A stretch of DNA of 64,000 nt from Oligoflexia bacterium (GTDB lineage Bacteria; Bdellovibrionota; UBA1018; CAIMNF01), in NCBI GenBank assembly GCA_903845155.1, contig CAIMWN010000250.1, positions 2,550 to 66,549 on the forward strand, written 5' to 3'. The first letter of the stretch is position 1. Each line of letters starts with the position of its first letter. The notes beneath the pieces were generated by a model. It was not told the origin of the DNA. It saw nothing but the letters and a program-made list of their open reading frames with translations, and did no database searches. The position numbers and the translations under genes were made by a program. This document shows positions 8,441-51,211 of this stretch, one piece after another.

Positions 8441-9604
8441 ATGAAAAATTACCTAACACTAGTATTAGCAGTATTGATGGTATCAACCACAGCAAACGCA
8501 TCACGTGCACGTCTTGAGTCACTGGGCGAAGGCAAAAACGGATCCTATTACATTCAAGATTCAAGAAACATTTTCTTAAATCCAGCTCAAATCGTACATT
8601 ATAAGAAAAAATTAAGCCTTGAGTTCGGTAACGAGCCAGGCGCAACACAAGACACTTCATTAGCTCCACGTGGCCAAGGCGGCTTCACTAACACTTTCGG
8701 TGATTTCACTTATGGTGTTTACATGAATCAAACTTCAGAGCGCGAATTATATGCAATTTCAAGTGCTAATGCTTTGGGTGGTGCTTTTATCGCTCCTGAG
8801 AGCCAACTTGAGTTCACTTTCGCTGGCGAAGGCGCGATGAACTGGGGTTTTAGTCTTCTTTATGCTGGTAATAATACCAAAGGTGTTGCGGGAGCAGCTG
8901 AAAAAACAGCATCTCTCTTCGGCGTTCGCCTCGGAGTAGAGTCTGGTAACCTTCAAGCATTTTCTTCAATCGGTATTGCGAGTGATTCAAAAGTGAAAAA
9001 TGCAAGCACTGACGAAGTCAAAGGGAAAGTATCAGTAGATGTAGCAGTTACTTACAAAATGGACGAAATGACTGATTACGCTCACTTCTCTTCTTATGGA
9101 ACAGATGTCACATTAAGCACTTTAAACAGTGGTAATGTAGTTCAAAACAGAAACACTGCTTTCGGCCTCGGTGCTGGTTGGAAACATGACATGAGCAAAT
9201 CAACTACTATGTTTTGCCGTGTAAGCGGTGACTACTTGAAAACAACAACTACAAGTTTCTCAGACATCACTACTTGGAACGTTCCAATCGTAGTAGGTGC
9301 TGAAGCCGTTGCTCTTAGCTGGTTGACCATCCGTGGTTCAATTGCAGAAAGCATCCTTGGACAAACTAATGGTTCAATCGCAAGCGGATCAGCTTACCGT
9401 ACCAGCCTTTCAGGCTTAACTACAGTAGCTGCAGGCGTTGGCATGACTTTCGGTGACGTAGTCATCGACGGTTTAGTATCATCTAACGGTGCTACTAATT
9501 CTGCAAACGGTATTCCAGGCTTCGGAACTGGCCAAACTACTGGTGGAACTTTCGGCTTCGGCGACAACATGCTTAGCCGTGTAGCGATGACTTACAATTT
9601 CTAA
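8441..9604 (+). CDS. Outer-membrane beta-barrel protein (porin-like), probably abundant
   Basis: AGGAG 8 nt upstream of the ATG. Signal peptide MKNYLTLVLAVLMVSTTANA. Gly/Ser/Thr/Ala-rich alternating strands. C-terminal ...VAMTYNF, the terminal aromatic signature of OMPs. Followed by a strong intrinsic terminator. Confidence 0.65.
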   Translation: MKNYLTLVLAVLMVSTTANASRARLESLGEGKNGSYYIQDSRNIFLNPAQIVHYKKKLSLEFGNEPGATQDTSLAPRGQGGFTNTFGDFTYGVYMNQTSERELYAISSANALGGAFIAPESQLEFTFAGEGAMNWGFSLLYAGNNTKGVAGAAEKTASLFGVRLGVESGNLQAFSSIGIASDSKVKNASTDEVKGKVSVDVAVTYKMDEMTDYAHFSSYGTDVTLSTLNSGNVVQNRNTAFGLGAGWKHDMSKSTTMFCRVSGDYLKTTTTSFSDITTWNVPIVVGAEAVALSWLTIRGSIAESILGQTNGSIASGSAYRTSLSGLTTVAAGVGMTFGDVVIDGLVSSNGATNSANGIPGFGTGQTTGGTFGFGDNMLSRVAMTYNF

Positions 9605-9628
9605 TCAAATCGTAAGCAAATAAAAATT

Positions 9629-9664
9629 AAGGCCTCCATGGACATCCATGGGGGCCTTTTTTTT
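9629..9664 (+). terminator. Rho-independent terminator of the OMP gene
   Basis: AAGGCCTCCATGG-ACAT-CCATGGGGGCCTT forms a 13-bp stem with one G-U pair, followed by a run of 8 T (9657-9664). Confidence 0.75.
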
Positions 9665-9667
9665 GTC

Positions 9668-9797
9668 AGTTACGCACAGGTGCTTCGCATGATGAACGGG
9701 CTTTAAAATAAAATGCTTTTGCTCCTGGGGACTCTTTAAGTCGCAAAACCATTTTATTTTAAAGTCCGTTCATCGTACAAAAAACTGCGCGTAACTC
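9668..9797. repeat. Long hairpin 1 with conserved 24-nt loop core
   Basis: - Inner arms 9691-9715 / 9750-9774: 25 bp, 1 mismatch.
- Outer arms GTTACGCACAG 9669-9679 / CTGCGCGTAAC 9785-9795: 1 mismatch.
- The loop contains the core GCTCCTGGGGACTCTTTAAGTCGC (9721-9744). Confidence 0.8.
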
Positions 9798-9909
9798 ATA
9801 AAAAGTTTAGGTCCAAGGAGTGATGATCTTCCCCCTCCGGTCCCTCAGATGGACGCAGTAAACGTCTTTTCCTTTATTGCTCATTGGGCACAGATGTTTT
9901 TTAAGTATC

Positions 9910-9979
9910 GGGCTATATAATAGAGAGGCATTGCGACTTTAAGAGTCCCCAGGAGCAATGCCTCTCTATTATATAGCCC
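9910..9979. repeat. Long hairpin 2 carrying the same loop core in inverted orientation
   Basis: - Arms GGGCTATATAATAGAGAGGCATT 9910-9932 / AATGCCTCTCTATTATATAGCCC 9957-9979: 23 bp, perfect.
- Loop 9933-9956 is GCGACTTTAAGAGTCCCCAGGAGC. This is the reverse complement of the hairpin-1 core at 23 of 24 positions. Confidence 0.8.
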
Positions 9980-10040
9980 CAAACTTGAAGAATACGGCCG
10001 CAACAAAGTACAATAAAAGCAAATACTTAACTGCAAACCC

Positions 10041-10070
10041 TTGACTTTGTACCCACAAAATCGCTAGATT
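10041..10070 (+). promoter_or_regulatory. Candidate sigma70-type promoter for mraY (would give a leaderless mRNA)
   Basis: TTGACT (10041-10046), an 18-nt spacer, then TAGATT (10065-10070). The mraY ATG is at 10077, 7 nt after the -10 element. No Shine-Dalgarno sequence is present, and a TAA stop sits immediately upstream in frame. Confidence 0.3.
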
Positions 10071-10076
10071 ACTTAA

Positions 10077-11153
10077 ATGCTCTATTACTTGCTCTATCCG
10101 CTCCACGAATCGATCGGTGTTTTTAACGTTTTTAAATACATTACCTTCAGGACATTTGGGGCAACCATCACTGCAATTATGATGTGTTTATTGCTCGGTG
10201 GCCGTTACATTCGTTGGCTAAAAGAAAAACAAATCGGCCAAAGCATACGTGAGCTTGGTCCCCAATCTCATCTTTCTAAAAAAGGAACACCGACCATGGG
10301 TGGGGGCCTGATCTTGGGGTGTATTTCAATATCAACACTTCTTTGGGCAGATTTGCGCAATCATTATGTATGGGTTGCCCTCTTTGTCATGCTTGGAACG
10401 GGCCTGGTAGGATGGGTCGATGATTATCGAAAAGTGGTTCAGAAAAACTCAAAGGGTTTGAGTGCTAAGCAAAAACTGATTGCGCAGACTTTGGTTGCAG
10501 TAATTGCGGCGACATTCTTGTACATCATGCGCGATACTCCGCCCGTACTTAAGTTTCCATTTTTTAAAGATTGGTCTATTGATCTTGGTGTCTTCTTTAT
10601 TCCGTTTGCAACACTCGTGATTGTAGGGACTTCAAATGCAGTGAATCTTACGGATGGCTTAGATGGTCTCGCCGTGGGGCCTACTATTACCACTTCACTC
10701 ACCTTTGCGATGCTCGCCTATTGCGCAGGTCACTTCATCATTGCAGAATATCTTCAAATTCCATTTATCTCAGGTGCGGGTGAGTTGTCTATTTTCTTAG
10801 CCAGCACTGCAGCCGCTTGTTTGGGGTTTCTTTGGTACAATTCTTATCCTGCAGAAGTTTTCATGGGGGACGTCGGAGCGCTTGCGCTCGGTGGAGCGCT
10901 TGGTGTTTCCGCTGTGATTACCAAAAACGAATTGTTACTCGTTATTTGCGGTGGAATTTTTGTAGTGGAGGCAGTGAGTGTGATGATGCAAGTGGCATCC
11001 TTCAAACTTACCGGAAAAAGAATTTTTAAAATGGCGCCCATTCATCATCATTTTGAATTGAAGGGTTGGCCTGAGCCGAAAGTGATCGTCCGTTTTTGGA
11101 TTATTTCAATCCTTTTAGCCTTGGCGTCGCTGTCGACATTAAAGTTACGTTGA
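10077..11153 (+). CDS. mraY: Phospho-N-acetylmuramoyl-pentapeptide transferase MraY
   Basis: 358 aa, polytopic. The N-terminus ...[13 protein letters not shown] parallels E. coli MraY. Signature motifs [13 protein letters not shown] and [12 protein letters not shown]. Confidence 0.94.
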
Positions 11154-11196
11154 TTTTATTTTTGTTAAACAAATTGAATAGAGGAGTAGTAAAGCA

Positions 11197-12582
11197 ATGA
11201 GTAAGTTTAAAGGTAAGAAAGTTCTGATCGTTGGATGTGGAACTTCAGGAGTGGCGGCCGCAAAGTTTTTGGTAAAACAAGGTGCTCGAGTCATGATTTC
11301 AGATACAAAGCAACGTACTGAACTTCCTGAGCCCCTCAAAGAACTGGGTGATCTGAAAGTTGAATTGGAATTTGGTGGTCACACTGAGCGTTCCTTTATG
11401 GGTGCAGAGCTCATTATTGTGAGCCCTGGTATCAACATTAATAATCTTCAGTTGCTTCAAGCAGCGAAAGCAAAGGGAACGCCCGTTACCAGTGAGATTG
11501 AACTTGCAGTCGGCGAGCTCGAGCAACCCCTGATTGCGATCACGGGCACCAATGGTAAATCTACTGTCACCACATTGGTTGGCGAGATGTTTAAATCAGA
11601 CCAAAAGGGAGCCTTTATCGGTGGAAATCTAGGAACACCTCTCATCGACTACGTGACCCAGGGGCAACCTGGTCAAGTAGCAGTTTGTGAGCTTTCTAGT
11701 TATCAGCTTGAACTCACCGAAAAGATGGTTCCGGCTGTCGCGATCTTCACGAACATTGATCAAGACCATCTCGATCGTTATGGAAGCATGGAAAACTATA
11801 CTGCAGCGAAAAAACGTTTGCTGAAAGTTTGTGATCGTAACTCGTGGGTAGTGCTGAATTACGACGACTCAGTGGTTCAGGGCTTTGCCCAAGAGAACGT
11901 AGGAAAACTGATTTGGTTCACCATGAAAAATCCACTCGAAGTGGGCGGAGATTTTGCTGAAAAGTTTTTCGGAGCCTACTATGATGCAACGAAAAATGTC
12001 ATTGTGACTAAGGTAACCGGAAAAGAAGAAATTTATACTTTAGAGCTCTTTAAGCTTTTCGGTGATCACAATAAACAAAACTTGATGGCTGCAATTTGTG
12101 CCGCTCGCGTAATGGGCGTGAGTCAACAAGGAATTCAAGCTTGTATTAATTCCTTTAAGGGTCTGGCCCATCGACTTGAGTTCGTTCGGAAAAAGGACGG
12201 TGTTTATTTTTTCAATGATTCCAAAGCCACTAATATTCAAAGCGTTCAAGCCGCATTGACTGCATTCAAGCGTTCACCAGTAATTCTAATTGCGGGTGGA
12301 AAAGATAAGAACATGGAGTTCACTCCTCTGGTGCCATTGGTTCAGAAAAAAGTAAAACTCATGATTTTAGTTGGGGAAGCAAAAGAGAAAATCAACCGCG
12401 CACTGGGTGATTTCGCTGAGACCTACCTCGTGGGTACCTTTGAAGAGGCTGTTCTCATGTCTTTCCAAAAATCCAGGAATGGCGACATTGTACTTTTATC
12501 ACCCGGCTGTTCAAGCCAAGATATGTTCCGAGACTTTGAAGAGCGAGGCGATTATTTCAAAAAACTGGTTAACCAACTCTAA
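11197..12582 (+). CDS. murD: UDP-N-acetylmuramoylalanine--D-glutamate ligase MurD
   Basis: GAGGAG RBS. VLIVGCGTSGVAAAKFL N-terminal Rossmann motif, GTNGKST P-loop, Mur ligase C-terminal domain. Located directly after mraY. Confidence 0.93.
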   Translation: MSKFKGKKVLIVGCGTSGVAAAKFLVKQGARVMISDTKQRTELPEPLKELGDLKVELEFGGHTERSFMGAELIIVSPGININNLQLLQAAKAKGTPVTSEIELAVGELEQPLIAITGTNGKSTVTTLVGEMFKSDQKGAFIGGNLGTPLIDYVTQGQPGQVAVCELSSYQLELTEKMVPAVAIFTNIDQDHLDRYGSMENYTAAKKRLLKVCDRNSWVVLNYDDSVVQGFAQENVGKLIWFTMKNPLEVGGDFAEKFFGAYYDATKNVIVTKVTGKEEIYTLELFKLFGDHNKQNLMAAICAARVMGVSQQGIQACINSFKGLAHRLEFVRKKDGVYFFNDSKATNIQSVQAALTAFKRSPVILIAGGKDKNMEFTPLVPLVQKKVKLMILVGEAKEKINRALGDFAETYLVGTFEEAVLMSFQKSRNGDIVLLSPGCSSQDMFRDFEERGDYFKKLVNQL

Positions 12583-12649
12583 GAATTTTTGGTCCCATTT
12601 CATAAAGGAAATTTCCCGACCGTTTAGCGCTAAGCAAAGCCGAGGCGAT

Positions 12650-13753
12650 GTGTTTTTAATCGTATTGGTTTTGACCATGGTGCTGTTCGGCCTCCTCATG
12701 GTGTACAGTGCTTCTTTTATTTTTGCTGAAGAACGCACTGGTGATGGTTTTGCTTTTATTAGAAAGCAATTCGTCTATGCCCTTCTTGGCTTTGGTGCTT
12801 TTTTCATTTCATCACGTGTTCCTCATCAAAAATGGTACGAATGGGCTCCGGTCGCACTTTTTACCATTATCGGAATGCTTATTTTTGTAATGATTCCCGG
12901 AGTAGGGGTCCGCGTGGGTGGAGCTCAGCGTTGGATGAATCTTGGCTTTGTTCGATTCCAGCCTGCAGAGCTAGCCAAGCTAGTTGGTGTGATGTTTGTC
13001 GCAAGGCAGTTGGTTCGTCATCAGCGGGAGCTTCATGACTTTAGAAAAGGCGTGATTGGACCTGTTGCGCTTTTATTACCCATGATGGGACTGCTGTTGC
13101 TTCAGCCCGACTTTGGCTCGACTGCACTTTTGGCCGGCACCACATTTATCCTTATGTTTATTGCGGGTGTAAGGCCCCTATTCTTATTTGGGGGCCTTTT
13201 TGCTGCAATTTCAGCGGCGACGGCACTTATTATGACTTCCCCCTACCGTCTTGCTCGAGTCATGACTTTTATCGATCCCTGGAGGGATCCATCGGGAAAA
13301 GGGTTTCAAGTCATTCAATCGATGCTCGGACTTCACAACGGAAGTTTGTTTGGTCAGGGCTTAGGGAACGGGAAAGAAAAATTATTTTTCCTCCCTGAAG
13401 CGCATAATGATTTTATCTTTGCAGTGATCGGCGAGGAGCTTGGCTTTATTGGGGTAGCCGGGGTGATTTTGGCGTATATTCTTTTTATTTATCGCGGTCT
13501 TAAAATATCGTGGCTCTCCCTTCATCAACGCAATGATCGTTTTGGATTCTATTTTGGTTGCGGGATTTCCCTGATTCTCGGACTTCAAGCTTTTATTAAT
13601 ATGGCCGTGGTCATGGGACTCCTTCCGACAAAGGGGTTAACATTACCTTTTATTAGCTATGGGGGTTCTGCACTCGTGCTCAATTTATTTTCTATCGGAA
13701 TTCTCTATAGTATTTCAAAAGCCAATCAGGGATCTTTTTATGAAAGCGACTAA
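12650..13753 (+). CDS. ftsW: SEDS-family peptidoglycan polymerase / cell-division protein FtsW
   Basis: SEDS motifs QPAELAKL, LPEAHNDFIF and LPFISYGGSAL. The ORF-track start 12371 overlaps murD by 212 nt. I trimmed it to the first in-frame start after the murD stop (GTG 12650; ATG 12677 is an alternative). The true start is uncertain. Confidence 0.85.
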   Translation: MFLIVLVLTMVLFGLLMVYSASFIFAEERTGDGFAFIRKQFVYALLGFGAFFISSRVPHQKWYEWAPVALFTIIGMLIFVMIPGVGVRVGGAQRWMNLGFVRFQPAELAKLVGVMFVARQLVRHQRELHDFRKGVIGPVALLLPMMGLLLLQPDFGSTALLAGTTFILMFIAGVRPLFLFGGLFAAISAATALIMTSPYRLARVMTFIDPWRDPSGKGFQVIQSMLGLHNGSLFGQGLGNGKEKLFFLPEAHNDFIFAVIGEELGFIGVAGVILAYILFIYRGLKISWLSLHQRNDRFGFYFGCGISLILGLQAFINMAVVMGLLPTKGLTLPFISYGGSALVLNLFSIGILYSISKANQGSFYESD

Positions 13754-14843
13754 TGAGTTTCAAGGTACCAATAGACGGTTGTTGATTGCAGGTGGAGGAA
13801 CTGGCGGACATATCTTAGCCGGGATTGCAATCGCAGATGAATGGTGTAAGGCCCTCCAAGCAGAGAAGTCGTCTGTATTGTTTGTGGGAGCAGAGCAAGG
13901 ATTAGAAGCGAAATTAGTTCCAAAATATAAGTATCCTCTCGAGCTATTGAGAATTGGCGCCTTAAATCAGGTGAGTAAAAAAACAAGAATCGCAACCTTG
14001 ATTAAACTGCCCTTCAATTTTTTTAAAGCATTTTTTATTTTGCTGAGATTTCGTCCGCACGCGGTAATCGGAGTCGGTGGATATGCTTCCGGTCCTGTCG
14101 TTTTACTAGCGAGAGTCATTTCAATCTTTACTGGTACGAGGACTGCCATCATTGAGCAAAATTCAGTGGCAGGATTCACGAATCGGCTCCTTGGTCAATT
14201 TGTGCAACGCGTGTTTTGCGCCTTCGAGGCCGGCACTCGTTCTTTTGATTCGGCTAAAGTAATGGTAACAGGAAATCCCATTCGCTCATCGCTTCAAAAA
14301 CTACCGCCTTCTCCGGTTGAACCCTTCACCTTATTTATTTTTGGCGGAAGCCAAGGTTCTTACGCAATCAATTCAATGATCATTGAGGCGCTTCCTTTTT
14401 TAAAAAACCAGGGTATTCAGTTTATTCACCAAACTGGTGTGAAGGACCATGAGCGCGTAAGTGTAGGTTACGCTCGTGAGGGGATGGCGGCACGCATAGA
14501 AAAGTTTATCGATGATATGGGCTCTTGTTACGAGCAAGCGAGTTTGGTGGTGTGCAGAGCTGGTGCGTCCACCATGGCCGAACTTGCATCAGTGGGAAGA
14601 GCCGCGATCTTTGTGCCGCTACCGACTGCTGCCGACAATCATCAGGAAAAAAATGCACAAATTTTTGAAATGGCTGAGGCGGCACAGGTCATCTCTCAAG
14701 GTTCATTAACAGGGCTTCAGTTTGCTGAAAGAATTATTTATCTAAAGAATAATCATGGCGTTATCCGCTCTATTGAAACTAAGGTTCAGAGTTTCTATCA
14801 AAGCAATTCTGCCCAAATGATTGTGAAGGATTTGCAGCAATGA
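13740..14843 (+). CDS. murG: UDP-GlcNAc:lipid I GlcNAc transferase MurG
   Basis: LLIAGGGTGGHILAG N-terminal motif and a GT28 C-terminal domain. ATG 13740 (MKATNEF...) overlaps the ftsW stop by 14 nt. Confidence 0.9.
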   Translation: MKATNEFQGTNRRLLIAGGGTGGHILAGIAIADEWCKALQAEKSSVLFVGAEQGLEAKLVPKYKYPLELLRIGALNQVSKKTRIATLIKLPFNFFKAFFILLRFRPHAVIGVGGYASGPVVLLARVISIFTGTRTAIIEQNSVAGFTNRLLGQFVQRVFCAFEAGTRSFDSAKVMVTGNPIRSSLQKLPPSPVEPFTLFIFGGSQGSYAINSMIIEALPFLKNQGIQFIHQTGVKDHERVSVGYAREGMAARIEKFIDDMGSCYEQASLVVCRAGASTMAELASVGRAAIFVPLPTAADNHQEKNAQIFEMAEAAQVISQGSLTGLQFAERIIYLKNNHGVIRSIETKVQSFYQSNSAQMIVKDLQQ

Positions 14844-16261
14844 TTCCTCACCGAAAATTCAAACTTCATTTTGTAGGCATCGGTGGAATTGGAATGAGTG
14901 GCATTGCCGAGGTATTTCTGGCCCAAGGCCATCAGGTCAGTGGTTCGGATTTATTGTCCAATGAAACTACGGAGCGCTTAGTGAGAATGGGTGCTGTGTA
15001 TTACAGTGGGCATGCTAGCGAACATGTTCATGATGTGGATGTGGTGGTCATTAGTTCAGCAGTAAAACCCCATAATCCGGAGGTTTTAGAGGCGAAAAAG
15101 CAGGGGATACCCATTATCCCAAGGGCCGAAATGCTGGCTGAAATCATGCGGGGTAAAACGGGTATTGCCATTGCTGGCACTCACGGAAAAACGACAACGA
15201 CCTCCATGACAGCACAGATTTTATTAAAGGCGGGCCTCGACCCAACAGTGGTGGTCGGTGGAAAAGTAGAAGCGATTGGTAGTAATGCAAAAATTGGTGC
15301 GGGTAGTACCGTAGTAGTAGAAGCAGATGAAAGTGATGGTTCTTTTCACTTACTCCCGGCCACTTACGGTGTGGTGACGAATATCGATCTTGATCACATG
15401 GAGTTTTATAAAACCCGTGACAACCTAAATAATGCTTTCATTCAATTTGTTAAGAACATGCCTTTTTATGGGTGTACATGGCTTTGTGGTGATGACGAGG
15501 GCGTTAAAGCGATCCTTTCGGAACTCACTAAACCTCATTTTACTTACGGTTTTGAATCACAGAATGATTTGATTGCTAAGAACTGGCGGGTAACTTCGAG
15601 CAGCTCCCAGGTATTTGAAGTGTGGCAGCGAGCACAGAAAAACAGACATCCCGAACTTTTGGGGGAGATTCAATTAGCGGTATTAGGAAAACACAATGTT
15701 TTGAATTCGCTTGCAGCATTCGGCATTGCGCTCAGCCTGGGAATTTCATTTTATGCGATTAAAGAGGCCCTTTCCGAATTTAAGCACGTGAGGCGTCGAT
15801 TTGATGAGCGATATTGGTCGGCTGAGAGAAACATTCGCATCATTGATGACTATGGTCACCACCCCACTGAGATCAAAGCAGTGCTTGCCACGGCTAAGCA
15901 GACTGGTAACACTCGTTTGGTGACCATATTTCAACCCCATCGTTATACTCGGACTCAGTTTTGCTGGACAGAGTTTTTAAGTTGTTTTGATGATAGCGAC
16001 GTGTTGCTGATGTTGCCTATCTACGCAGCTAATGAAGATCCTATAGAAGGTATTACGAGTGCACGCTTGTGTAGTGAAATTAGCGCCAAAGCTCAGCAAA
16101 AAACAAAGCCACTGTTGGTCGTGAATGTGCAAAGTCTATCTGAAGCCGAAAGCTGGGTGGTGAAGAACCTTAAGGATGGCGACATCGTTCTTACTCTCGG
16201 AGCGGGATCGATTACGAAACTCGCTGAGCAGCTTGCAAAAAGTCTGACACGGTCAAGCTAG
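14840..16261 (+). CDS. murC: UDP-N-acetylmuramate--L-alanine ligase MurC
   Basis: HFVGIGGIGMSGIAEV and the GTHGKTTTTS P-loop. ATGA overlap with the murG stop. Confidence 0.93.
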   Translation: MIPHRKFKLHFVGIGGIGMSGIAEVFLAQGHQVSGSDLLSNETTERLVRMGAVYYSGHASEHVHDVDVVVISSAVKPHNPEVLEAKKQGIPIIPRAEMLAEIMRGKTGIAIAGTHGKTTTTSMTAQILLKAGLDPTVVVGGKVEAIGSNAKIGAGSTVVVEADESDGSFHLLPATYGVVTNIDLDHMEFYKTRDNLNNAFIQFVKNMPFYGCTWLCGDDEGVKAILSELTKPHFTYGFESQNDLIAKNWRVTSSSSQVFEVWQRAQKNRHPELLGEIQLAVLGKHNVLNSLAAFGIALSLGISFYAIKEALSEFKHVRRRFDERYWSAERNIRIIDDYGHHPTEIKAVLATAKQTGNTRLVTIFQPHRYTRTQFCWTEFLSCFDDSDVLLMLPIYAANEDPIEGITSARLCSEISAKAQQKTKPLLVVNVQSLSEAESWVVKNLKDGDIVLTLGAGSITKLAEQLAKSLTRSS

Positions 16262-19496: not shown

Positions 19497-20945
19497 TTAT
19501 TTCTTGAGGAGTGCCTTTTGTACTTCTTCCCGATCATCGAAGTGTACCTTTTCTAGGCCATGAGGAGTCGCTACTATCTGATAGGTTTCATGGCCTTTTC
19601 CCGCAATCATCACAATATCTCCTCGATTTGCAAGTCGGATAGCGGTTTCAATAGCGAGCCCTCGATCGGGAATGACCTGGTAGTTCTTGGTTTGAATGCC
19701 GCCTTCAATCTCTTTTAAAATTTCATTTGGATTTTCGCTACGTGGATTGTCATTCGTTAAAATCACTAGGTCAGACAGTCGGGTGGCGATGTCTCCCATT
19801 ACTGGGCGCTTGGTTTTGTCGCGGTCTCCACCACAGCCGAAAACGGTAATCAGTTTTTGCCCCTCCCTGAATCTCTCCAAGGTTGGTTTTACAGAAAGGA
19901 GAACTTTCTCAAGTGCTTCAGGTTTATGTGCGTAATCGACAAAAGTGAAAATCCCTTCCTCGTTTGGAATGTATTCCATTCGACCGGGCACTCCTGAAAA
20001 ATGGGGGAGGGTCGCGCAAGCTTCCTCCACATCGATCCCCAGCCCGGCGACAATGGAAAGCGCTGCAAGTATGTTTTCAATTTGGAAGGTTCCAAAGAGC
20101 GGACAGGATACGGGGACCCATTTGCGGTTCAACTTCATTTCCGCTTCGATTCCAGTTGCGGTATTCCTTAAGTTTCGGACTTGCTCTCTTATGGAATAGG
20201 GATGAATGTTTTTGTTTTCCTTAATTAAGCGCGCGCCATAGCTACGGTCTTGATTGCTTACCGCATAGAAGTTCTTCCCGATGTTCTTTGAGTACTCTGC
20301 ATGCTCAGTAAAGAGCAGGGCCTTTGCTTTAAAATAATGTTCGAGGGTCGGATGATAATCCATGTGCTCAGGGCTCAAATTGAGAAATACAGCGCCATCC
20401 CAAGCGATTCCCCAAGTGCGCTCCTGATCGAGTGCGTGTGAAGAAACTTCCATCACCACGTGTGTGGCTCCTTGCTCTTGAACGGTCTTGAACCATTTTT
20501 GCAGCGTTACTGGGTCTGGAGTAGTGTTTGACGTTTCCGTTTCGTAGCCCTTGAAATAACCGCCGTTGGTACCGAGGCGCGCACACGAATATCCGCAGGC
20601 ATTCAAGAGGTGATGAATGAGATAAGTGGTAGTGGTCTTTCCGCTCGTACCGGTGACTCCGATCATCTTTAAAGTATGAGTGGGGTTTCCTGCCATTTGG
20701 CTAGCTAGCTCACCCAGTTTTTTTCGGGTCTCTTTACCCAGAATAGTAATTTTGCAATGCGCGCTCTGTGTGGGTGTCAGTTTTATTTTTGGATCTTCCT
20801 CACAATAAATTTGAGATGCTCCCGCGAGGACAGCATCTTTTACAAAAAGATGCCCGTCGAATTTTGCTCCTTTGAGAGCAAAAAAAATGGACCCCTTTTT
20901 AACTTCCTTCGAGTTTGCGGTGACATGGATCAAGGACTCGGTCAT
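19497..20945 (-). CDS. murE: UDP-MurNAc-L-Ala-D-Glu--meso-2,6-diaminopimelate ligase MurE
   Basis: GVTGTSGKTTT P-loop. DNPRSE, the DNPR motif associated with meso-DAP specificity. The ATG lies 2 nt after the ftsI stop. Confidence 0.92.
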   Translation of the reverse strand: MTESLIHVTANSKEVKKGSIFFALKGAKFDGHLFVKDAVLAGASQIYCEEDPKIKLTPTQSAHCKITILGKETRKKLGELASQMAGNPTHTLKMIGVTGTSGKTTTTYLIHHLLNACGYSCARLGTNGGYFKGYETETSNTTPDPVTLQKWFKTVQEQGATHVVMEVSSHALDQERTWGIAWDGAVFLNLSPEHMDYHPTLEHYFKAKALLFTEHAEYSKNIGKNFYAVSNQDRSYGARLIKENKNIHPYSIREQVRNLRNTATGIEAEMKLNRKWVPVSCPLFGTFQIENILAALSIVAGLGIDVEEACATLPHFSGVPGRMEYIPNEEGIFTFVDYAHKPEALEKVLLSVKPTLERFREGQKLITVFGCGGDRDKTKRPVMGDIATRLSDLVILTNDNPRSENPNEILKEIEGGIQTKNYQVIPDRGLAIETAIRLANRGDIVMIAGKGHETYQIVATPHGLEKVHFDDREEVQKALLKK

Positions 20946-20947
20946 GA

Positions 20948-22969
20948 CTACTCCTCAAGGAAAAAAGTAACACGGAGATGAGGAGAAAGAACAGAGCCGC
21001 TTTCTGGAGATTGATGTTTAATGAGTCCAAAACCATGAATTTGGACTTGAGGCAGAAATGGTTTTAATGAACGAATTGCCTCTTGCGGCGTGAGTCCAAT
21101 GAGAGAAGGCATGACGGGGTGGTCAAGATTCACTTCCTTTGAGCTTTCAACCGATTGCGCACTTACTTCGGCACTGGATTGCGCAATTTGAATACTTTCA
21201 TTTGCAATGAGTGCTTCTTTTTTACTCGGTGCTGGGGTGCCCTGCACTAAAGGAATTTCCATTTTTTCTGTAGTAGGAATACTGAAGCGACTGACTGTTT
21301 GTTTTAACACTTGGGAGAAAAGTGGTGCGGCAGTTTCGCCACCGTAATAAATTCCTTTTGGATGATCTAAGAGTGCAAGAATGGTGATCGGTTGTTTTAC
21401 GCCAACCGGATAACCAATAAAAGAAGCAATGTATCTTGAAGTGGAGTAGCGCTTCGTGTGTGGGTCAACTGTTTGGGCAGTTCCTGTTTTACCAGCGATC
21501 AGATACCCTTCGAGTCTCGCCTTTTTACCTGTTCCCTTTTCGTCTTCAGTAACGTTGACGAGCGCTTCAGTCGCATCTCTCACCGCGCCCTGTTTGAAAA
21601 GAGGGACTTCATTTATCTTTTCATTTTCTTTTCGTTTGAGAAGGGTAGGCTCAACTAAAAAGCCACCGTTTGAAAGTGCAGCATATGCACGAATCATCTG
21701 CATGGGAGTGACCATGATGCTTTGACCAAATCCCATGGTAGCGAGGGTGAGGGGCTTAATATTTTTAGCGGTACCAGGCATCCAGCCAGAAATCTCACCT
21801 GGGAGTTGACTCCCTGTTTTGGCGCCGAATCCCATTTCTTTTAAGGAGGCGAGGTAGCGTTCAGCGCCAAACTTGAGTGCAAGTTCTGCTGCAACCACAT
21901 TGCTTGATACGGTGACCATTTTTTTAAGTGTGATGTATCCAAATTTTTCGTGAGCCTCAGCTTCGCTGATGGTTCTCTTTTGAATGACGAATTTTCCGTA
22001 GTGACCAAAAAGTTGGTCACTGAGCTTAACTACACCCTTGTTGATTGCTGATGCAAGCATGAGGGGTTTCATGGTTGAACCAGGTTCATAGCCATCCGTA
22101 ACAGCCATTACTTTTTTAACTCCGCGGCCTGTTCCTGCGCTTGATGCTTGTGCAAGCGCGAGGATTTCACCAGTCTTGGAATCCATGACCATTACGGTTC
22201 CGCTCTGAGCCCGAGTTTTAATCATGGCGTCTTGCAGTGATTCCTCAACCGAATACTGAAGTGAAGCATCAATGCTGAGATCAATGTTTTCTCCATCTTG
22301 TGTTTTGGTTTGTGCATTCATTTGGTAAAGAGCGGGTCTGCCGAGTGCGTCTTTAAATGCATCAAAGGAAGCACCTTTCCCGGCCAATTTCTTATTAAGC
22401 CAGAGTTCTACGCCTTCGAGTCCTTCTGTATCAACATTTACGGAACCAATGAGAGATTGAGCCATCTCACCATGGGGATAAACCCGTTTCATCTCTTTAA
22501 CAATCCAAAGGCCCTCGGGCATGTCACCGTTTGCTTGAAGGATTCCGGCTTTTCTAAAGCGATTAATACGATCTTCACTGACGTGACGTTCGAACCAAAT
22601 GAATGCTCTCTTCGCATCTAGTTTTTTCTTCAACACTTGCGGTGAGGTGCCTAGTGCATGGGCTAATAAATGAAGAGTCGATCTTGATTTTAAAATTTTA
22701 GAAGGATTGCCTGCGAGGCTTGAAGTTTCAAGGTTGATGGCGAGTGCTTCGCCTGTACGATCTACGATCAGTCCGCGCCTTGGTTTGATCATGATTTTAG
22801 ACTGAAATTGTTTCTTACCCAAGTTTTCGAGTTTCGTTTCTCCGATGATTTGCAACTTGAGTGATCGGCATAACATTCCAACTGAAATTAAAGCAAACAA
22901 GCCAATCACGAGGCTTAAGCGGATGCGGATAGAAGGCGTTTGATGAAATGCGGCCGAGCGCGAACTCAA
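20948..22969 (-). CDS. ftsI: Class B penicillin-binding protein FtsI (PBP3-like) with C-terminal PASTA-like domain
   Basis: TTG start. N-terminal TM anchor. Transpeptidase motifs STMK (SxxK), SSN (SxN) and KTGTA (KTG). The last 55 aa, VMPSLIGLTPQEAIRSLK...GLIKHQSPESGSVL..., look like a PASTA domain. Confidence 0.9.
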   Translation of the reverse strand: MSSRSAAFHQTPSIRIRLSLVIGLFALISVGMLCRSLKLQIIGETKLENLGKKQFQSKIMIKPRRGLIVDRTGEALAINLETSSLAGNPSKILKSRSTLHLLAHALGTSPQVLKKKLDAKRAFIWFERHVSEDRINRFRKAGILQANGDMPEGLWIVKEMKRVYPHGEMAQSLIGSVNVDTEGLEGVELWLNKKLAGKGASFDAFKDALGRPALYQMNAQTKTQDGENIDLSIDASLQYSVEESLQDAMIKTRAQSGTVMVMDSKTGEILALAQASSAGTGRGVKKVMAVTDGYEPGSTMKPLMLASAINKGVVKLSDQLFGHYGKFVIQKRTISEAEAHEKFGYITLKKMVTVSSNVVAAELALKFGAERYLASLKEMGFGAKTGSQLPGEISGWMPGTAKNIKPLTLATMGFGQSIMVTPMQMIRAYAALSNGGFLVEPTLLKRKENEKINEVPLFKQGAVRDATEALVNVTEDEKGTGKKARLEGYLIAGKTGTAQTVDPHTKRYSTSRYIASFIGYPVGVKQPITILALLDHPKGIYYGGETAAPLFSQVLKQTVSRFSIPTTEKMEIPLVQGTPAPSKKEALIANESIQIAQSSAEVSAQSVESSKEVNLDHPVMPSLIGLTPQEAIRSLKPFLPQVQIHGFGLIKHQSPESGSVLSPHLRVTFFLEE

Positions 22970-22973
22970 ATAT

Positions 22974-23249
22974 TCATTCTTTCAATTGGATCATGCGATC
23001 CGGAGTAGGGGGGGTTAATTTAAATTTTGATTTTGCAAGTGCCTCTAGTCTTCTGGGTGAGCGTGCTTGAGCAACTTTAAGTTCGAGGCGTTCGCTTTCA
23101 AGTTTAAGATTGTTGAGTGTTTTGTTTGCTTGATTAAGTTCGTAAGTAGTTTGAACAACGGTAAGTCTGAGCCATACCGTGGCAAAAGCAAAAAGGATCA
23201 ACACTGGAATGGTCCACATTGGGAAAAATCTTTTCATGACTAAGCTCAA
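22974..23249 (-). CDS. ftsL: Cell-division protein FtsL-like
   Basis: 91 aa. One TM segment (WTIPVLILFAFATVWLRLTVV) followed by a coiled-coil-like region. Sits in the canonical position between rsmH and ftsI. Confidence 0.65.
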   Translation of the reverse strand: MSLVMKRFFPMWTIPVLILFAFATVWLRLTVVQTTYELNQANKTLNNLKLESERLELKVAQARSPRRLEALAKSKFKLTPPTPDRMIQLKE

Positions 23250-23401
23250 GTGTAACTTGGTTTTTATTGCGAGGCAATAAAAGTTGGCCCGTTGGTCTAC
23301 GCTGAGTTCTCCGGCCTGCTTCGCAACTCACGCTTCAGCTCCTGCCGCAGCGTTTTACTTTAATTGAGTGTCATAAAAATGGCGCAGGAGAATGAGCTAA
23401 A

Positions 23402-46182: not shown

Positions 46183-48077
46183 ACGTGGAACTTAAAGTAC
46201 GTGACGTGCATATTGACGTAGCAATTTTAGCGGGACCAAGAATCCAAACCTGGCCTACCCACGGCGTTCGTGTGCTTTCTCGATTGTGTGCCGATGCGGG
46301 ATTAAAAGTAGGTTGGTATGGTGGCGCAGGAATGCGGGTTCGCGGAGTCCTTCCTCTCGAAGGCAGTGGTGCATTGGTCATCGTCGAAGATGCCCAAAAA
46401 AGGCTTCATCGCATTCATGCAAAATCAGCGATTAAGGTTACGCCTCATTTGGATTTCCCTCTTCCTTTTTCTGGTTGGTATTCGCCAGGTTTGATTCCAG
46501 AGTCAACAGCAAGAAAACTGATGAAACAGGGAAGTTTGAATTGGCAGCCGGTGGTGGTCATTCTTGGTTCGGGTAATCAGGCTTTTCGTTTGGGATCTGA
46601 ACTCATTCAAACAAAGTCGGTCAATCGTGTGGTCTGTGTTGAATCCGTTTATGAACAAGTTCAAGCTTGGGAAGTGGAAAAACGTCGCTTCGAAGTGCTG
46701 GGTGGAAAAGTGATCTTTGGAAAGCTAAACTCACTCGTTCAGAAATCTCCTTTTTTATGGGAAATAAAAATTCAAGACAAGCAAGGGACGCGCATCATTG
46801 ATGCCGCGCGGGTAATTTCGGTGGGGCCCTTTCATGGTGATGAAGGGTTTCGTGAATACCCATCCGGTTCATTCTTGGTTGAATGGGAAAATACAGAAGT
46901 TCAACAAATTGCTGATGACGTTGAGCCTTTTTTGCTCGATGAACACCGCGCTGTTCTTTTGGCCGCAAGGCTCATTAAGGGATTGGCTCATCAATCACAA
47001 CTCGATAAAAGCGTGTGGGTAAGTAAGCAGAAATTAAAAGAATTAGAAACGATTCATGACAAACGTTTTTCTTGGACTTACGAAGGTAAGTGGTTAAGTG
47101 CGGACAGTAAAAAATTGCTTGGTGAATTTGCAGGCACACCTAAAACTCTCGTTCCTGAAAAAATGAAGGCCTCCATTGAATGTGTAGAAGCCATTGGGTG
47201 TCGAGTTTGCCAGAAGGCTTGCCCAGTCGATGCAATCAAGATTGAGCGAACCCAACAAGGCGGAACTTCTTCGTTTTTAATCGAAGATGCCTGCACTGGT
47301 TGCGGTTTTTGTTTGCAAGCGTGCCCCAGTCAAGTGCCCATCATGATCGAAGGTGACTCAACACAAAGTTTTACGCCGCTTGTTTTCCCCTATCGAGAGA
47401 GAGCGCCTCTTAAAAAGGGTGTTCGCGTGGGTCTCTTAAGCCGTAAAGGCGAAATGCTTGCCAATGCTAAAGTGCTCGATCAGTTTTTAAATGGCGATGT
47501 GCCTCTCTTTAAAGTGGAAGTTCCATCGCATTTAATTTGGGAAGCTCGCGGTTTGATTTCGATGACTCCTAAGGCGGAAGTGGAGCACGCGGATGATTTT
47601 TACCATGAAAAGGGTGAGCGGGTAGAAGTGCAAATTCAAGGCGATGTCAGACGCGTGCGCGAGGGGCAACTCATCTCGGTTGCACTCTTCGAAATTGGCA
47701 TGAGTAGACCCAATGATATTTTAATTTGTGAAGATGGAAGTTGTGGCCTTTGTCAGATTGAAACGGATGGCGTGAAAAAATTTGCCTGCCAATCAACAAT
47801 CCATCATGGAATGTCGATTCGCTTTACCCGCGACCATGAGCAATCATCTGAAATTTGTCCGTGTAGTTCCATCACCACCGATCAATTGCGCGCTACCTGT
47901 ATGTCGACTAAACCTGACAGTATTGAAGCGCTCGCACAAGTTTGTGAAGTGGGGCAAGGGCGTTGCCACGGGTTGCTCTGCAAAAAATCGTTCATCGAAG
48001 TGGCGGGTGAAGCTGGGATTGAGAGTGCGCGGTATGCAGATTGGGCGTTTCCGTGGACTGATTGGATGTTGAGCTAA
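46179..48077 (+). CDS. Multi-cluster iron-sulfur / NAD(P)-binding oxidoreductase-like protein
   Basis: 632 aa. GTGA overlap with the upstream gene.
- VVVILGSGNQAFRLG (GxGxxA).
- Two ferredoxin-type 4Fe-4S motifs: CVEAIGCRVCQKACP and CTGCGFCLQACP (aa 335-383).
- CEDGSCGLCQ...C, like the N-terminal 2Fe-2S of sarcosine-oxidase-alpha/HcnA.
- BFD-like CPC...CHGLLC (aa 560-601). Confidence 0.6.
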   Translation: MNVELKVRDVHIDVAILAGPRIQTWPTHGVRVLSRLCADAGLKVGWYGGAGMRVRGVLPLEGSGALVIVEDAQKRLHRIHAKSAIKVTPHLDFPLPFSGWYSPGLIPESTARKLMKQGSLNWQPVVVILGSGNQAFRLGSELIQTKSVNRVVCVESVYEQVQAWEVEKRRFEVLGGKVIFGKLNSLVQKSPFLWEIKIQDKQGTRIIDAARVISVGPFHGDEGFREYPSGSFLVEWENTEVQQIADDVEPFLLDEHRAVLLAARLIKGLAHQSQLDKSVWVSKQKLKELETIHDKRFSWTYEGKWLSADSKKLLGEFAGTPKTLVPEKMKASIECVEAIGCRVCQKACPVDAIKIERTQQGGTSSFLIEDACTGCGFCLQACPSQVPIMIEGDSTQSFTPLVFPYRERAPLKKGVRVGLLSRKGEMLANAKVLDQFLNGDVPLFKVEVPSHLIWEARGLISMTPKAEVEHADDFYHEKGERVEVQIQGDVRRVREGQLISVALFEIGMSRPNDILICEDGSCGLCQIETDGVKKFACQSTIHHGMSIRFTRDHEQSSEICPCSSITTDQLRATCMSTKPDSIEALAQVCEVGQGRCHGLLCKKSFIEVAGEAGIESARYADWAFPWTDWMLS

Positions 48078-48078
48078 G

Positions 48079-48205
48079 TTGATTGGAGTGGGGTTTTAAT
48101 CAATAGTTTGTTTGCTCCACGCGCATCCATGCGCTTATCGCTTTCGCCCTCCAGGCTCGCTCAAGTCGCAAATAAACTATTGATTAAAACCCCACTCCAT
48201 TCAAC
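48079..48205. repeat. Long hairpin 3 (38-bp arms, 51-nt loop) between convergent genes
   Basis: Arms GTTGATTGGAGTGGGGTTTTAATCAATAGTTTGTTTGC 48079-48116 / GCAAATAAACTATTGATTAAAACCCCACTCCATTCAAC 48168-48205, with 2 mismatches in 38. It starts 2 nt after the upstream stop. There is no flanking T-run. The loop-arm junction AAGTCGCAAA is identical to that of hairpin 1. Confidence 0.8.
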
Positions 48206-48254
48206 ATACGCTGATCGTCTGGATCGCTCGAAAGGTCCAGTAAACCCATAGCTT

Positions 48255-49100: not shown

Positions 49101-49295
49101 TCTCTGGCACTCAGCAATGATTATTAAACTAAATAAGTGTAATTGCGCTTCGCTTGAGTTTGGGGTCGTAACGTGCTGGATTTACGAATGTCTTAACGTG
49201 AGCCTAGCTTTTAAGCCATCGCTTGCTTTGAATCAAAAAATACCAATTTCCATCACAATACTGGGTTTGTGTACTCAAGTAATCATGAAGCGCAT

Positions 49296-49682: not shown

Positions 49683-49792
49683 TTTCTCCCCTTTTTCTAG
49701 ACCCGTTATGAATGCGAGTCTGCTGGAGGTTTTTTTAAGCGAGATATTCATCATTTGCAATGTAGAATAGGTGATGATATCCATTCGAATTA

Positions 49793-50635: not shown

Positions 50636-50638
50636 CTT

Positions 50639-51193: not shown

Positions 51194-51211
51194 AGTCTTA
51201 CGAGTGCCCTG

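What the first reader, a model, noticed from the sequence alone, without database searches (positions are those of the whole stretch)
9668..9979. Twin long hairpins with unrelated stems but the same 24-nt loop core in opposite orientation, upstream of mraY
The 472-bp non-coding gap between the OMP terminator and mraY holds two long hairpins.
- Hairpin 1 has arms 9691-9715 / 9750-9774 (25 bp, 1 mismatch) plus an outer 11-bp extension.
- Hairpin 2 has arms 9910-9932 / 9957-9979 (23 bp, perfect).
- The stem sequences are unrelated.
- The loops carry GCTCCTGGGGACTCTTTAAGTCGC (9721-9744) and GCGACTTTAAGAGTCCCCAGGAGC (9933-9956). These are reverse complements of each other at 23 of 24 positions.

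So the two cores also form a 24-bp inverted repeat bracketing a 188-bp segment (9745-9932). I see three readings:
- A structured repeat-element family (REP/BIME-like or MITE-like) defined by a conserved loop presented on variable stems. This is unusual, because such families normally conserve the stem.
- An inverton-like switch whose inverted repeats flank a segment just upstream of the first gene of a dcw half-cluster.
- Loop-displayed binding sites for a protein acting on RNA or single-stranded DNA.

No recombinase or transposase is present in this window. The site also coincides with the apparent rearrangement breakpoint of the dcw cluster.
Basis: seen in the sequence. Interest (0 to 1): 0.65.

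Follow-up and report, generated by a model that had tools for sequence, protein, structure and literature searches.

The report
Hairpin repeat family with conserved tip
The two hairpins upstream of mraY are copies of a repeat family in freshwater Bdellovibrio-like bacteria: long DNA hairpins whose stems differ from place to place but whose tip is nearly constant; this is most likely small mobile DNA, not a gene switch.

Summary
In detail: two very stable hairpins carry the same 20-nt loop (24 nt with the closing GC pairs) in opposite orientation.

Three points need correcting.
- The two stems are related: 17 of 25 positions match in register, and every change is compensated on the other arm.
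- A third family member lies at 48075-48208. Its 52-nt loop has the same ends (TCC...AAGTC).
- OMP-mraY adjacency is conserved in five relatives, so this is not a fresh breakpoint. About 330 bp of extra DNA sits here in this species only.

The same 19-20-nt loop caps long hairpins with unrelated stems in two other genomes. One is at the site orthologous to hairpin 3. Two look like bidirectional terminators between convergent genes. At least six more copies occur in lake metagenomes that hold this organism.

No Rfam family, phage or plasmid matches. The window encodes no transposase or site-specific recombinase.

The inverton reading is not supported: the conserved mraY promoter lies outside the segment, no orientation variants were seen, and solitary copies exist elsewhere.

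Best reading: a REPIN/ERIC-like, non-autonomous hairpin element recognised through its tip. The main rival is a functional 3'-end or terminator loop motif. Transcription and mobility remain untested.

The parts
9623..9664 (+). Intrinsic terminator of the OMP gene (8441-9604). Its T-run overlaps the start of the outer palindrome of hairpin 1.
   Evidence: (I4)
9660..9679 (.). Hairpin 1, outer left arm. It pairs with 9785-9804 (20 nt, 85%).
   Evidence: (I5)
9691..9722 (.). Hairpin 1, inner left arm. It pairs with 9743-9774.
9723..9742 (+). Hairpin 1 loop, TCCTGGGGACTCTTTAAGTC: a 7-nt bulge TCCTGGG, then the mini-hairpin GACT-CTTTA-AGTC.
9743..9774 (.). Hairpin 1, inner right arm.
9785..9804 (.). 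Hairpin 1, outer right arm.
   Evidence: I5
9805..9902 (.). Spacer between the two hairpins. It has no counterpart in relatives. It holds a core-like fragment, TTGCTCATTGGGCAC, at 9877-9891.
   Evidence: (I7)
9903..9934 (.). Hairpin 2, left arm (perfect over 9910-9934).
9935..9954 (-). Hairpin 2 loop. It is the same 20-mer on the minus strand, matching at 19/20.
9955..9986 (.). Hairpin 2, right arm.
10041..10070 (+). mraY promoter-like site, TTGACT-18-TAGATT. It is conserved in relatives and lies downstream of both hairpins. It is context, not part of the element.
48075..48115 (.). Hairpin 3, left arm (41 nt, 93% complementary to 48168-48208). It starts at the stop codon of the Fe-S protein gene.
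48116..48167 (+). Hairpin 3 loop, the 52-nt long form. It starts with TCC and ends with AAGTC, and contains the mini-hairpin GCGCAT-CC-ATGCGC.
48168..48208 (.). Hairpin 3, right arm.

Best explanation
The two hairpins are members of a dispersed family of hairpin-forming intergenic repeats in uncultured freshwater Bdellovibrionales.

What defines the family (shown): the tip, not the stem. The tip is a 7-nt single-stranded bulge TCCTGGG, then a 3-4-bp clamp GAC(T)/(A)GTC closing a short A/T-rich loop. Long forms of 52-60 nt share the same ends. This tip sits on a 25-45-bp near-perfect stem whose sequence is locus-specific.

What they are (inferred): non-autonomous mobile DNA.
- The hairpin tip, with a variable length of stem, is copied or moved as a snap-back hairpin.
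- It is placed at the dyad of other hairpin-forming DNA, often terminators at gene 3' ends. This leaves nested stems, no target duplication and either loop orientation.
- A trans-acting, structure-specific enzyme, not encoded in this window, would recognise the conserved tip.

The pair upstream of mraY is two such insertions, or one composite, in a permissive spacer. It is not a regulatory switch of mraY.

Shown: the family, its anatomy, its distribution and its presence/absence between species.
Inferred: mobility, the intermediate and the enzyme.
For: - Multi-copy. There are three members in 64 kb. At least six other loci appear in Logan contigs of runs X1 and X2. They share 9702-9763 at 84-97% identity and have their own palindromic outer arms. 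Core depth is 19-23 against 2.5-2.8 for the flanks.
- The same loop on unrelated stems in other genomes:
  - L015:11883-11984, loop 18/20 identical.
  - L027:6423-6502 (= L057:5665-5744), loop 20/20.
  - L057:1573-1647, loop 17/20.
  - Stem identity in these comparisons is 6-9 of 25, which is chance level.
  - Of 39 JGI hits to the degenerate loop pattern, only L027 has palindromic flanks (28/30); the rest have 14/30 or fewer.
- Pairing. 210 of 224 stem cells in eight hairpins are Watson-Crick, with about 3.2 pair types per position. Pairing starts immediately next to the loop in all of them, and there is no direct repeat.
- Presence/absence. The OMP-mraY spacer is 125-195 bp in L004, L008, L010 and L011, against 472 bp here. 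L055 and L056 have no such hairpin in 36 kb.
- Both orientations relative to neighbouring genes occur.
- Loop-length variants share their termini.
- Inner stems are shared and outer stems are unique among H1-type copies.
- Precedent for structure-directed insertion into hairpins without sequence specificity or duplication: IS1272/TnSha1 (PMC4923244).
- Precedent for hairpin-shaped non-autonomous elements: REPINs (PMC3337134).
Against: - No transposase, RAYT or recombinase was found in the window. The rest of the genome could not be searched.
- No clean empty/filled pair was found at nucleotide resolution. The closest relative (L004) is too diverged in the spacer.
- The loop evolves more slowly than the stem between paralogues: 1/20 against 8/25 differences (Fisher p = 0.027). 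This is what selection on a functional motif predicts.
- In the L057 genome both copies sit exactly where bidirectional terminators are expected, with A- and T-tracts. They could be ordinary functional hairpins.
- A 20-nt unit with no terminal inverted repeats is too small for any known transposase substrate.
- The sample is only eight sequenced copies, plus partial Logan flanks of 30 nt.
Confidence: 0.5

Rival explanations
1. A functional structured motif at gene 3' ends. The hairpin acts as a terminator or mRNA 3'-end stabiliser. The conserved tip (bulge UCCUGGG plus clamp) is a binding site for a protein or an RNA. On one strand it reads CUCCU (anti-Shine-Dalgarno-like). On the other strand it reads A(N)GGA, the CsrA/Shine-Dalgarno-like motif. 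The stems need only pair, so they drift by compensatory change.
For: - The loop is far more conserved than the stems: 16-20 of 20 against chance-level stems between genomes, and 1/20 against 8/25 differences within the genome.
- Five of the seven hairpins whose upstream neighbour is known have the TCC strand in the sense of the upstream gene, directly after its stop codon or terminator.
- H3 and both L057 copies are the only hairpin between convergent genes. The L057 copies have A-tract/T-tract flanks like the canonical terminators of that genome.
- The mini-hairpin in the long loops shows compensatory changes: GCGCAT/ATGCGC, GGGCAT/ATGCCC, AGGCA/TGCCU.
- G-T mismatches outnumber A-C mismatches 4 to 1 on the TCC strand.
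Against: - Both orientations occur. H2, L015b and L057b are antisense to the gene immediately upstream.
- H1, H2 and H3 lack T-tracts on either strand, and H1 follows a complete terminator.
- The hairpins are absent from the orthologous spacers of most relatives.
- No RNA data cover them.
- No Rfam family matches.
Confidence: 0.28
2. The conserved tip is the joined ends, or the attachment site, of a larger element (an IS or an integrative element) that inserts at hairpin tips. On this view the 20-mers are excision scars, minimal deletion derivatives or empty target sites.
For: - Contigs assembled independently in runs X1 and X2 (402 and 400 nt) carry an H1-like left arm and the loop up to GACTCT. 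They then run into at least 255 nt of unrelated sequence, CATTAAGGAGAGTAATCC....
- The loops come in 19, 20, 52, 57 and 60 nt forms with shared ends.
- H3 and L015a sit at the left edge of different lineage-specific gene islands after the same gene.
- IS1272 and IS1397-type elements target hairpins or loops (PMC4923244; IS1397 from general knowledge).
Against: - Logan contigs are demonstrably chimeric across this repeat. X1 record 5 joins the left flank of one copy to the right flank of another.
- The 30-nt continuation matches nothing in the window, the loci or the viral contigs.
- Identical scars in three genomes would need a very precise excision.
- Complete hairpins, not half-sites, flank the islands.
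Confidence: 0.15
3. An inverton: the two 24-nt cores are the inverted repeats of an invertible 188-bp segment that controls mraY and the half dcw cluster.
For: The cores are a 23/24 inverted repeat 188 bp apart, upstream of mraY.
Against: - The conserved promoter lies downstream of, and outside, the segment. No promoter-like site lies within it.
- Only one orientation appears in three ENA assemblies and in Logan contigs of three runs, with no joints.
- The window encodes no invertase.
- The same core occurs singly elsewhere.
- Relatives lack the whole region.
Confidence: 0.03

Closest known systems
REP / REPIN elements mobilised by RAYT transposases
   Same: They are short, non-coding and dispersed in intergenic regions at gene 3' ends. 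They form long hairpins as single strands, are non-autonomous, occur in either orientation, and differ in sequence family between lineages (PMC3337134, PMC3116915).
   Different: In REPINs the conserved parts are the two inverted REPs, which form the stem, and the spacer or loop is the less conserved part. Here the tip is conserved and the stem varies. No GTAG-type 5' tetranucleotide is visible, and no RAYT gene was seen in about 240 kb.
ERIC/IRU and other long imperfect-palindrome MITE-like repeats (Correia, RUP, RPE)
   Same: They are 70-150-nt imperfect palindromes in transcribed intergenic regions. They occur in both orientations and have length variants caused by internal insertions (general knowledge).
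   Different: Those families are conserved along their whole length or at their ends (terminal inverted repeats with target duplications). Here there is no terminal conservation and no direct duplication, and the stems are unrelated between genomes.
Hairpin- or loop-targeting insertion sequences (IS1272/TnSha1 of the IS1182 family; IS1397/ISKpn1 in REP loops; IS110-family elements in REPs)
   Same: The target is a DNA secondary structure, often a terminator, without primary-sequence specificity. The inserted DNA ends up flanked by the two halves of a stem. TnSha1 makes no duplication and removes the apex (PMC4923244).
   Different: Those are 1-2-kb elements that encode a transposase. Here only 19-60 nt lie between the arms, with no terminal inverted repeats and no identified enzyme.
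Integron attC sites
   Same: They are imperfect palindromes recognised as folded single strands, variable in sequence and length, and they lie at the borders of gene cassettes.
   Different: attC sites conserve the base of the stem (5'-RYYYAAC ... GTTRRRY-3') and vary at the tip. Here it is the opposite. Where GTT/AAC-like motifs occur (H3, L015a), their order is reversed. No intI gene and no array is present.
Invertons (invertible promoter switches)
   Same: Inverted repeats of about 24 nt flank a short intergenic segment next to an operon.
   Different: There is no promoter inside, no invertase and no orientation heterogeneity. The 'repeats' are the tips of two independent hairpin elements.

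Membership tests
REP/REPIN-RAYT | The conserved 20-40-nt REP palindrome forms the stem, and the spacer is less conserved. | tested here: not met
   Stems are at chance identity between genomes (6-9 of 25), while the loop is 16-20 of 20 identical.
REP/REPIN-RAYT | A conserved 5' tetranucleotide (GTAG or similar) at the foot of each REP. | tested here: not met
   Read directly from the eight hairpins: they share no tetranucleotide at the stem base.
REP/REPIN-RAYT | A single-copy RAYT (Y1/HUH) gene in the genome, usually flanked by REPs. | not testable with these tools
   None was found in the window.
REP/REPIN-RAYT | Many dispersed extragenic copies, often at gene 3' ends. | tested here: met
   Three copies lie in 64 kb, and at least six other loci appear in runs X1 and X2. 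All are intergenic.
Classical MITE | Terminal inverted repeats conserved between copies. | tested here: not met
   The outer arms are copy-specific.
Classical MITE | A direct target-site duplication. | tested here: not met
   The flanks next to the loop are inverted, not direct (TC/GA, CT/AG, CC/GG). No direct repeats lie at the hairpin feet.
Inverton | Both orientations are present in a population. | tested here: inconclusive
   Only one orientation appears in three assemblies and in Logan contigs. Raw reads were not available.
Inverton | A promoter lies inside the invertible segment, and an invertase gene is nearby. | tested here: not met
   The conserved promoter lies outside the segment.
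Integron attC | 5'-RYYYAAC ... GTTRRRY-3' at the stem base, with a variable tip. | tested here: not met
   Read from the sequence: the motif order is reversed where present, and the tip is the conserved part.
Intrinsic terminator | A G+C-rich stem followed by a T-run. | tested here: inconclusive
   Met by L057:5665-5744, L057:1573-1647 and L015a (A/T tracts). Not met by H1, H2 and H3.
Any Rfam family | A score at or above the family's gathering threshold. | tested here: not met
   No match at gathering score in the window, L015 or L057. There were only sub-threshold miRNA-precursor matches, which are generic for long hairpins.
IS1272-like hairpin-targeted insertion | The element is flanked by the two halves of a pre-existing hairpin, with no duplication and the apex removed. 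| tested here: inconclusive
   The geometry fits: pairing starts right at the loop and there is no duplication. No pre-insertion site could be recovered.

The most novel reading that the evidence does not exclude
A 'hairpin-hopping' element, which would be a new mode of DNA mobility.
- The mobile unit is the tip of a hairpin: the conserved bulge and clamp plus a variable length of stem.
- It would be cut across the stem and re-inserted at the dyad of other hairpins or cruciforms by a structure-specific enzyme.
- This would build nested palindromes with unrelated outer arms, leave no target duplication and allow free loop orientation.
- It would preferentially colonise transcription terminators.
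Probability: 0.15. Interest if true: 0.8.

Novelty: new variant of a known kind. Interest (0 to 1): 0.5.

Why it matters
Bacterial palindromic repeats (REP, REPIN, ERIC, MITEs) are defined by conserved stems or ends. A family whose only conserved part is a 20-nt asymmetric tip on otherwise arbitrary long stems points to recognition of a folded single strand through its apex. That apex would be read either by an unknown mobilising enzyme or by an RNA/DNA-binding protein.

The family is shared by at least three genomes whose neighbouring DNA shows no nucleotide similarity. It gives a concrete sequence handle (TCCTGGG bulge plus GAC/GTC clamp) for three searches:
- the enzyme or protein partner in Bdellovibrionota genomes;
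- structure-directed insertion into terminators;
- how long palindromes stay perfectly paired while their sequence turns over.

For annotation, it shows that the enlarged OMP-mraY spacer is repeat insertion. It is neither a regulatory switch nor a breakpoint.

Tried and rejected
- Exact and degenerate core scans. The genome-contig scan gave one chance hit inside a glycosyltransferase gene. The first JGI pattern gave nothing. The second gave 38 chance hits and one real hit. Viral contigs, phages and plasmids gave nothing.
- Rfam gave only generic miRNA-precursor hits below threshold.
- The covariance model R1, run over 236 kb of Bdellovibrionales DNA, recovered only the six members already known.
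- MAFFT could not align the unrelated stems, so the pair statistics were computed with a loop-anchored script.
- I tried to show that the left arms of H3 and L015a derive from the ancestral 3' spacer (an 'inverted duplication of the flank' model). The A/T-rich alignment is ambiguous, so I dropped it.
- Stems as acquired 'spacers' (shRNA-like guides): rejected without a scan, because the stems within this genome are homologous to each other.
- Integron attC: rejected on motif order.
- A tRNA-like anticodon arm in the loop: rejected, because position 33 would not be U.
- A walk beyond the window ends gave about 1.4 kb on one side, and no record for the other end protein.
- The RNA run X8 covers only part of the OMP gene.
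- Taxon names for the L027 genome: none on record.
- Literature searches found no description of this family.

Full report
**1. What is in the sequence**

The region between the stop of a 387-aa outer-membrane-protein-like ORF (8441-9604) and mraY (10077-11153) contains the following features.
- A canonical intrinsic terminator at 9623-9664.
- Hairpin 1, with inner arms 9691-9722 / 9743-9774 and outer arms 9660-9679 / 9785-9804.
- A spacer of about 100 nt.
- Hairpin 2, with arms 9903-9934 / 9955-9986, perfect over 25 bp.

Both hairpins have a 20-nt loop. It reads TCCTGGGGACTCTTTAAGTC on the plus strand in H1. In H2 the same sequence, with one change, lies on the minus strand. No shuffle of the window gave two matches.

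As RNA or as DNA, the hairpins fold 10-12 standard deviations better than shuffles. The predicted tip is the same in every short-loop copy:
- a 7-nt unpaired 5' segment, TCCTGGG;
- a 3-4-bp mini-stem, GAC(T)/(A)GTC, stacked on the main stem and closing a 5-7-nt A/T-rich loop.

Three independent ENA assemblies are identical over the whole spacer.

**2.

*The stems are not unrelated.* H1 and the reverse complement of H2 are 76% identical over 71 ungapped nt (I1). In register from the loop, 17 of 25 stem positions match, against 6.7 expected; none of 20000 permutations reached this. All eight differences are compensated on the other arm.

*There is a third member at 48075-48208.* It has 41-nt arms that are 93% complementary. 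Its stem matches H1 at 16/25 (p = 0.0006) and H2 at 13/25 (p = 0.004). Its 52-nt G+C-rich loop starts with TCC, ends with AAGTC and is closed by TTGC/GCAA like the other two.

*The site is not a fresh rearrangement breakpoint.*
- The organism is an uncultured freshwater member of the Bdellovibrionales (source names among the MraY homologues; lake-water runs).
- In five related species the same OMP gene directly precedes mraY. In one of them (L005) a two-gene module with a RES domain lies between the two genes.
- The spacer is only about 125-195 bp in those relatives.
- The -35/-10 pair TTGACT-18-TAGATT (10041-10070) is conserved in the relatives. It lies downstream of both hairpins.
- So about 330 bp (9665-9992) is extra DNA specific to this species.

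**3. The family outside the window**

*Other copies in the same lakes.* Logan contigs of two lake metagenomes that hold this organism contain at least six other loci.
- They match 9702-9763 (or a symmetric sub-range) at 84-97% identity and then diverge on both sides.
- The diverging flanks are inverted repeats of each other. Examples are GGTGAGAGGGGTTTAG...CTAAACCCCTCTCACC, GAGCGAGCTGG...CCAGCTCGTTC and AAAGAAGAGG...CCTCCTCTTT.
- Summed depth over the core is 19-23, against 2.5-2.8 for the unique flanks.

*A relative at the same site as H3.* L015 is from the same sample as L004, the closest relative (MraY 92% identical). It carries a hairpin right after the stop codon of the orthologue of the Fe-S protein gene that precedes H3. 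It has 41-nt arms and the loop TCCTGGGGACGTTTTAAGTC. Its stem is unrelated to that of H3 (8/25).

*A third genome.* A degenerate scan of JGI metagenomes returned 39 loci.
- In 38 of them the flanks are not palindromic (14/30 or fewer); these are chance hits.
- In one (L027; 47% G+C, against 45% in the window) the flanks pair at 28/30, and the loop is 20/20 identical to that of H1.
- That genome has a second copy (L057:1573-1647; loop TCCTGGGGACCCTTAAGTC on the minus strand) with yet another stem.
- Both copies lie between convergent genes. Both have an upstream A-tract and a downstream T-tract, like the ordinary tetraloop terminators nearby.

*Long-loop forms* (57 and 60 nt) occur at L015:13002-13136 and L005:96-203. 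With H3 they share two features.
- A mini-hairpin built around GCATCC(A)TGC, with compensated changes.
- A 3' module resembling the short loop, TCC(A/T)(T)GG...A(A/C)GT(C).

*Pairing statistics.* Across the eight sequenced hairpins, 210 of 224 cells in the 28 loop-proximal positions are Watson-Crick pairs, with on average 3.2 pair types per position. Between genomes the stems are at chance identity (6-9 of 25), while the loops are 16-20 of 20 identical.

*Searches that added nothing.*
- A covariance model built from H1 and H2 finds exactly these members and nothing else in 236 kb of related DNA.
- Two species with about 70% identical Fe-S proteins (L055, L056) have none in 36 kb.
- Rfam has no matching family.
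- Phage, plasmid and viral-contig collections have no match.

**4. The three readings of the first stage**

*Repeat family.* The idea of a repeat family defined by a conserved loop on variable stems is right, and is better supported by other genomes than by the pair itself.

*Inverton.* This reading is not supported.
- The promoter lies outside the segment, and no promoter-like site lies inside it.
- No orientation variant or joint is seen in any assembly or contig set.
- The window encodes no invertase or transposase. Pfam scans of the ORFs found only RecA and RecG among DNA-transaction proteins.
- The same core occurs singly elsewhere.
- Only contigs were available, not raw reads. Rare inversion therefore cannot be excluded.

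*Binding site.* This reading fits the anatomy (an invariant bulge and clamp with a variable apical loop) but is untested.

**5. Mechanism**

Any explanation has to account for the following facts.
- The tip is identical or nearly so in genomes that share no other nucleotide similarity.
- The stems are long, nearly perfect and locus-specific.
- Pairing begins immediately beside the loop, with no leftover loop bases and no direct duplication.
- Both orientations occur.
- Among H1-type copies, the inner stem is shared and the outer stem is unique.
- Presence and absence vary between related species.
- The copies prefer gene 3' ends, terminator positions and the edges of variable gene islands.

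On the last point, H3 and L015a both sit at the left edge of different lineage-specific islands, between the Fe-S gene and an HTH gene that are adjacent in L055 and L056.

I consider non-autonomous mobile DNA the most likely explanation (0.5). A snap-back hairpin, consisting of the tip plus some stem, would be placed at the dyad of other hairpin-forming DNA by a structure-specific activity. This gives nested stems and either orientation. A palindromic fragment with an asymmetric centre can go in both ways round and still produce the same stem.

IS1272/TnSha1 is a documented precedent. It targets hairpins, often terminators, without sequence specificity, and replaces part of the hairpin without a duplication (PMC4923244). 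REPINs are a precedent for hairpin-shaped passengers of a single-copy transposase (PMC3337134). The steps 'mobile', 'hairpin intermediate' and 'enzyme' are inferences. No enzyme and no nucleotide-resolution empty site were found.

*Main rival (0.28): a selected 3'-end or terminator motif.* The tip would bind a protein or an RNA.
- The loop changes less than the stem between paralogues: 1/20 against 8/25 (Fisher p = 0.027).
- The L057 copies look like working bidirectional terminators.
- The long-loop mini-hairpin covaries.
- On one strand the loops display CUCCU/UCC. On the other they display A(N)GGA motifs, for example CAUGGAUG. This resembles the CsrA/RsmA consensus known from the literature. 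That is a resemblance only, not a test.
- Against this rival: both orientations occur, H1-H3 lack T-tracts, and the distribution is patchy.

*Second rival (0.15): the tip is the joined ends, or the target site, of a larger element.*
- Contigs assembled independently in two runs (402 and 400 nt) carry the loop up to GACTCT and then continue into at least 255 nt of unrelated DNA.
- However, Logan contigs are demonstrably chimeric across this repeat.
- The continuation matches nothing available.

**6. Comparison with known kinds, and verdict**

The family works most like REPIN or ERIC-type hairpin repeats, and sits in DNA like the product of a hairpin-targeting insertion. It fails the defining tests of each known kind.
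- REP/REPIN: the conserved part should be the stem, and there should be a 5' tetranucleotide.
- Classical MITEs: there should be terminal inverted repeats and a target duplication.
- attC sites: the foot should be conserved and the tip variable.
- Invertons: see section 4.

I therefore rate it a new variant of a known kind. It is real, multi-copy and shared by at least three genomes, but of unknown activity. Interest is moderate (0.5).

It would rise sharply if structure-directed 'hairpin hopping' were shown (probability about 0.15). It would fall if a census shows an ordinary MITE with an identifiable transposase.

Noticed in passing
L008:2439-2523, L008:9869-9929 (= L009:9333-9393), L010:5099-5157: A different palindromic repeat family in related species. 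It has a conserved stem, (A)AAAGGTATCCGATTAC, and variable G+C-rich loops. One copy sits in the same OMP-mraY spacer, right after the OMP terminator, so this spacer is a recurrent landing place for hairpin repeats.
   Followed up: partly
L005:7461-8655 (also L006, L007): In another relative, the OMP-mraY spacer holds a two-gene insert: a 127-aa ORF plus a 265-aa protein with a weak RES-domain hit. This looks like a toxin-antitoxin module. It is another sign that the spacer is an insertion hotspot.
   Followed up: no
window 48078-51830; L015:11867-19431; L055:11924-12025; L056:8797-8940: The Fe-S protein gene and the HTH gene are adjacent in two relatives. They are separated by different gene islands in the window (3.7 kb: GH46, a LysR regulator and others) and in L015 (7.5 kb). 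A family hairpin lies at the left edge of each island. In L015 a short-loop hairpin (+) and a long-loop hairpin (-) bracket a two-gene module that starts with a nucleotidyltransferase-like gene (12162-12968).
   Followed up: partly
Logan contigs of runs X1/X2 laid on window 9681-9735: Contigs assembled in both runs (402 and 400 nt) carry an H1-like left arm and the loop as far as GACTCT. They then continue as CATTAAGGAGAGTAATCCATCACTCGCATA for at least 255 nt. This may be a copy interrupted at its very tip by other DNA. Another contig (X1 record 5) is clearly chimeric between two copies, so caution is needed.
   Followed up: partly
window 9877-9891: TTGCTCATTGGGCAC resembles the start of the core with its closing pairs (TTGCTCCTGGGGAC), but it has no hairpin around it. 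It may be a decayed third copy between H1 and H2.
   Followed up: no
L010:16116-16200: Another long hairpin (32-nt arms, 21-nt loop CTTTGTATTTCAGTCAATCAA) lies after murC in a relative. It is unrelated in sequence to the family studied here.
   Followed up: no
window 10077-16261 and 19497-24328: The dcw genes are split. mraY-murD-ftsW-murG-murC lie on the plus strand. murE, a PBP (ftsI-like) gene and mraW lie on the minus strand about 3 kb further on. The same layout is seen in L008 and L010, so it is old in this clade.
   Followed up: partly
window 53237-59557 (-): A 2106-aa ORF made of at least 17 IPT/TIG domain repeats (Pfam E = 7e-215). It is probably a giant surface protein.
   Followed up: no
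window 9273-9453: A 181-nt contig from a peat metatranscriptome (run X8) is 100% identical to part of the OMP gene. This is the only RNA evidence found for this organism, and it does not reach the hairpins.
   Followed up: no
window 48100-48112: The left arm of hairpin 3 contains AATCAATAGTTTG, which fits the IHF consensus WATCAANNNNTTR as I recall it from the literature. The other copies do not have it.
   Followed up: no
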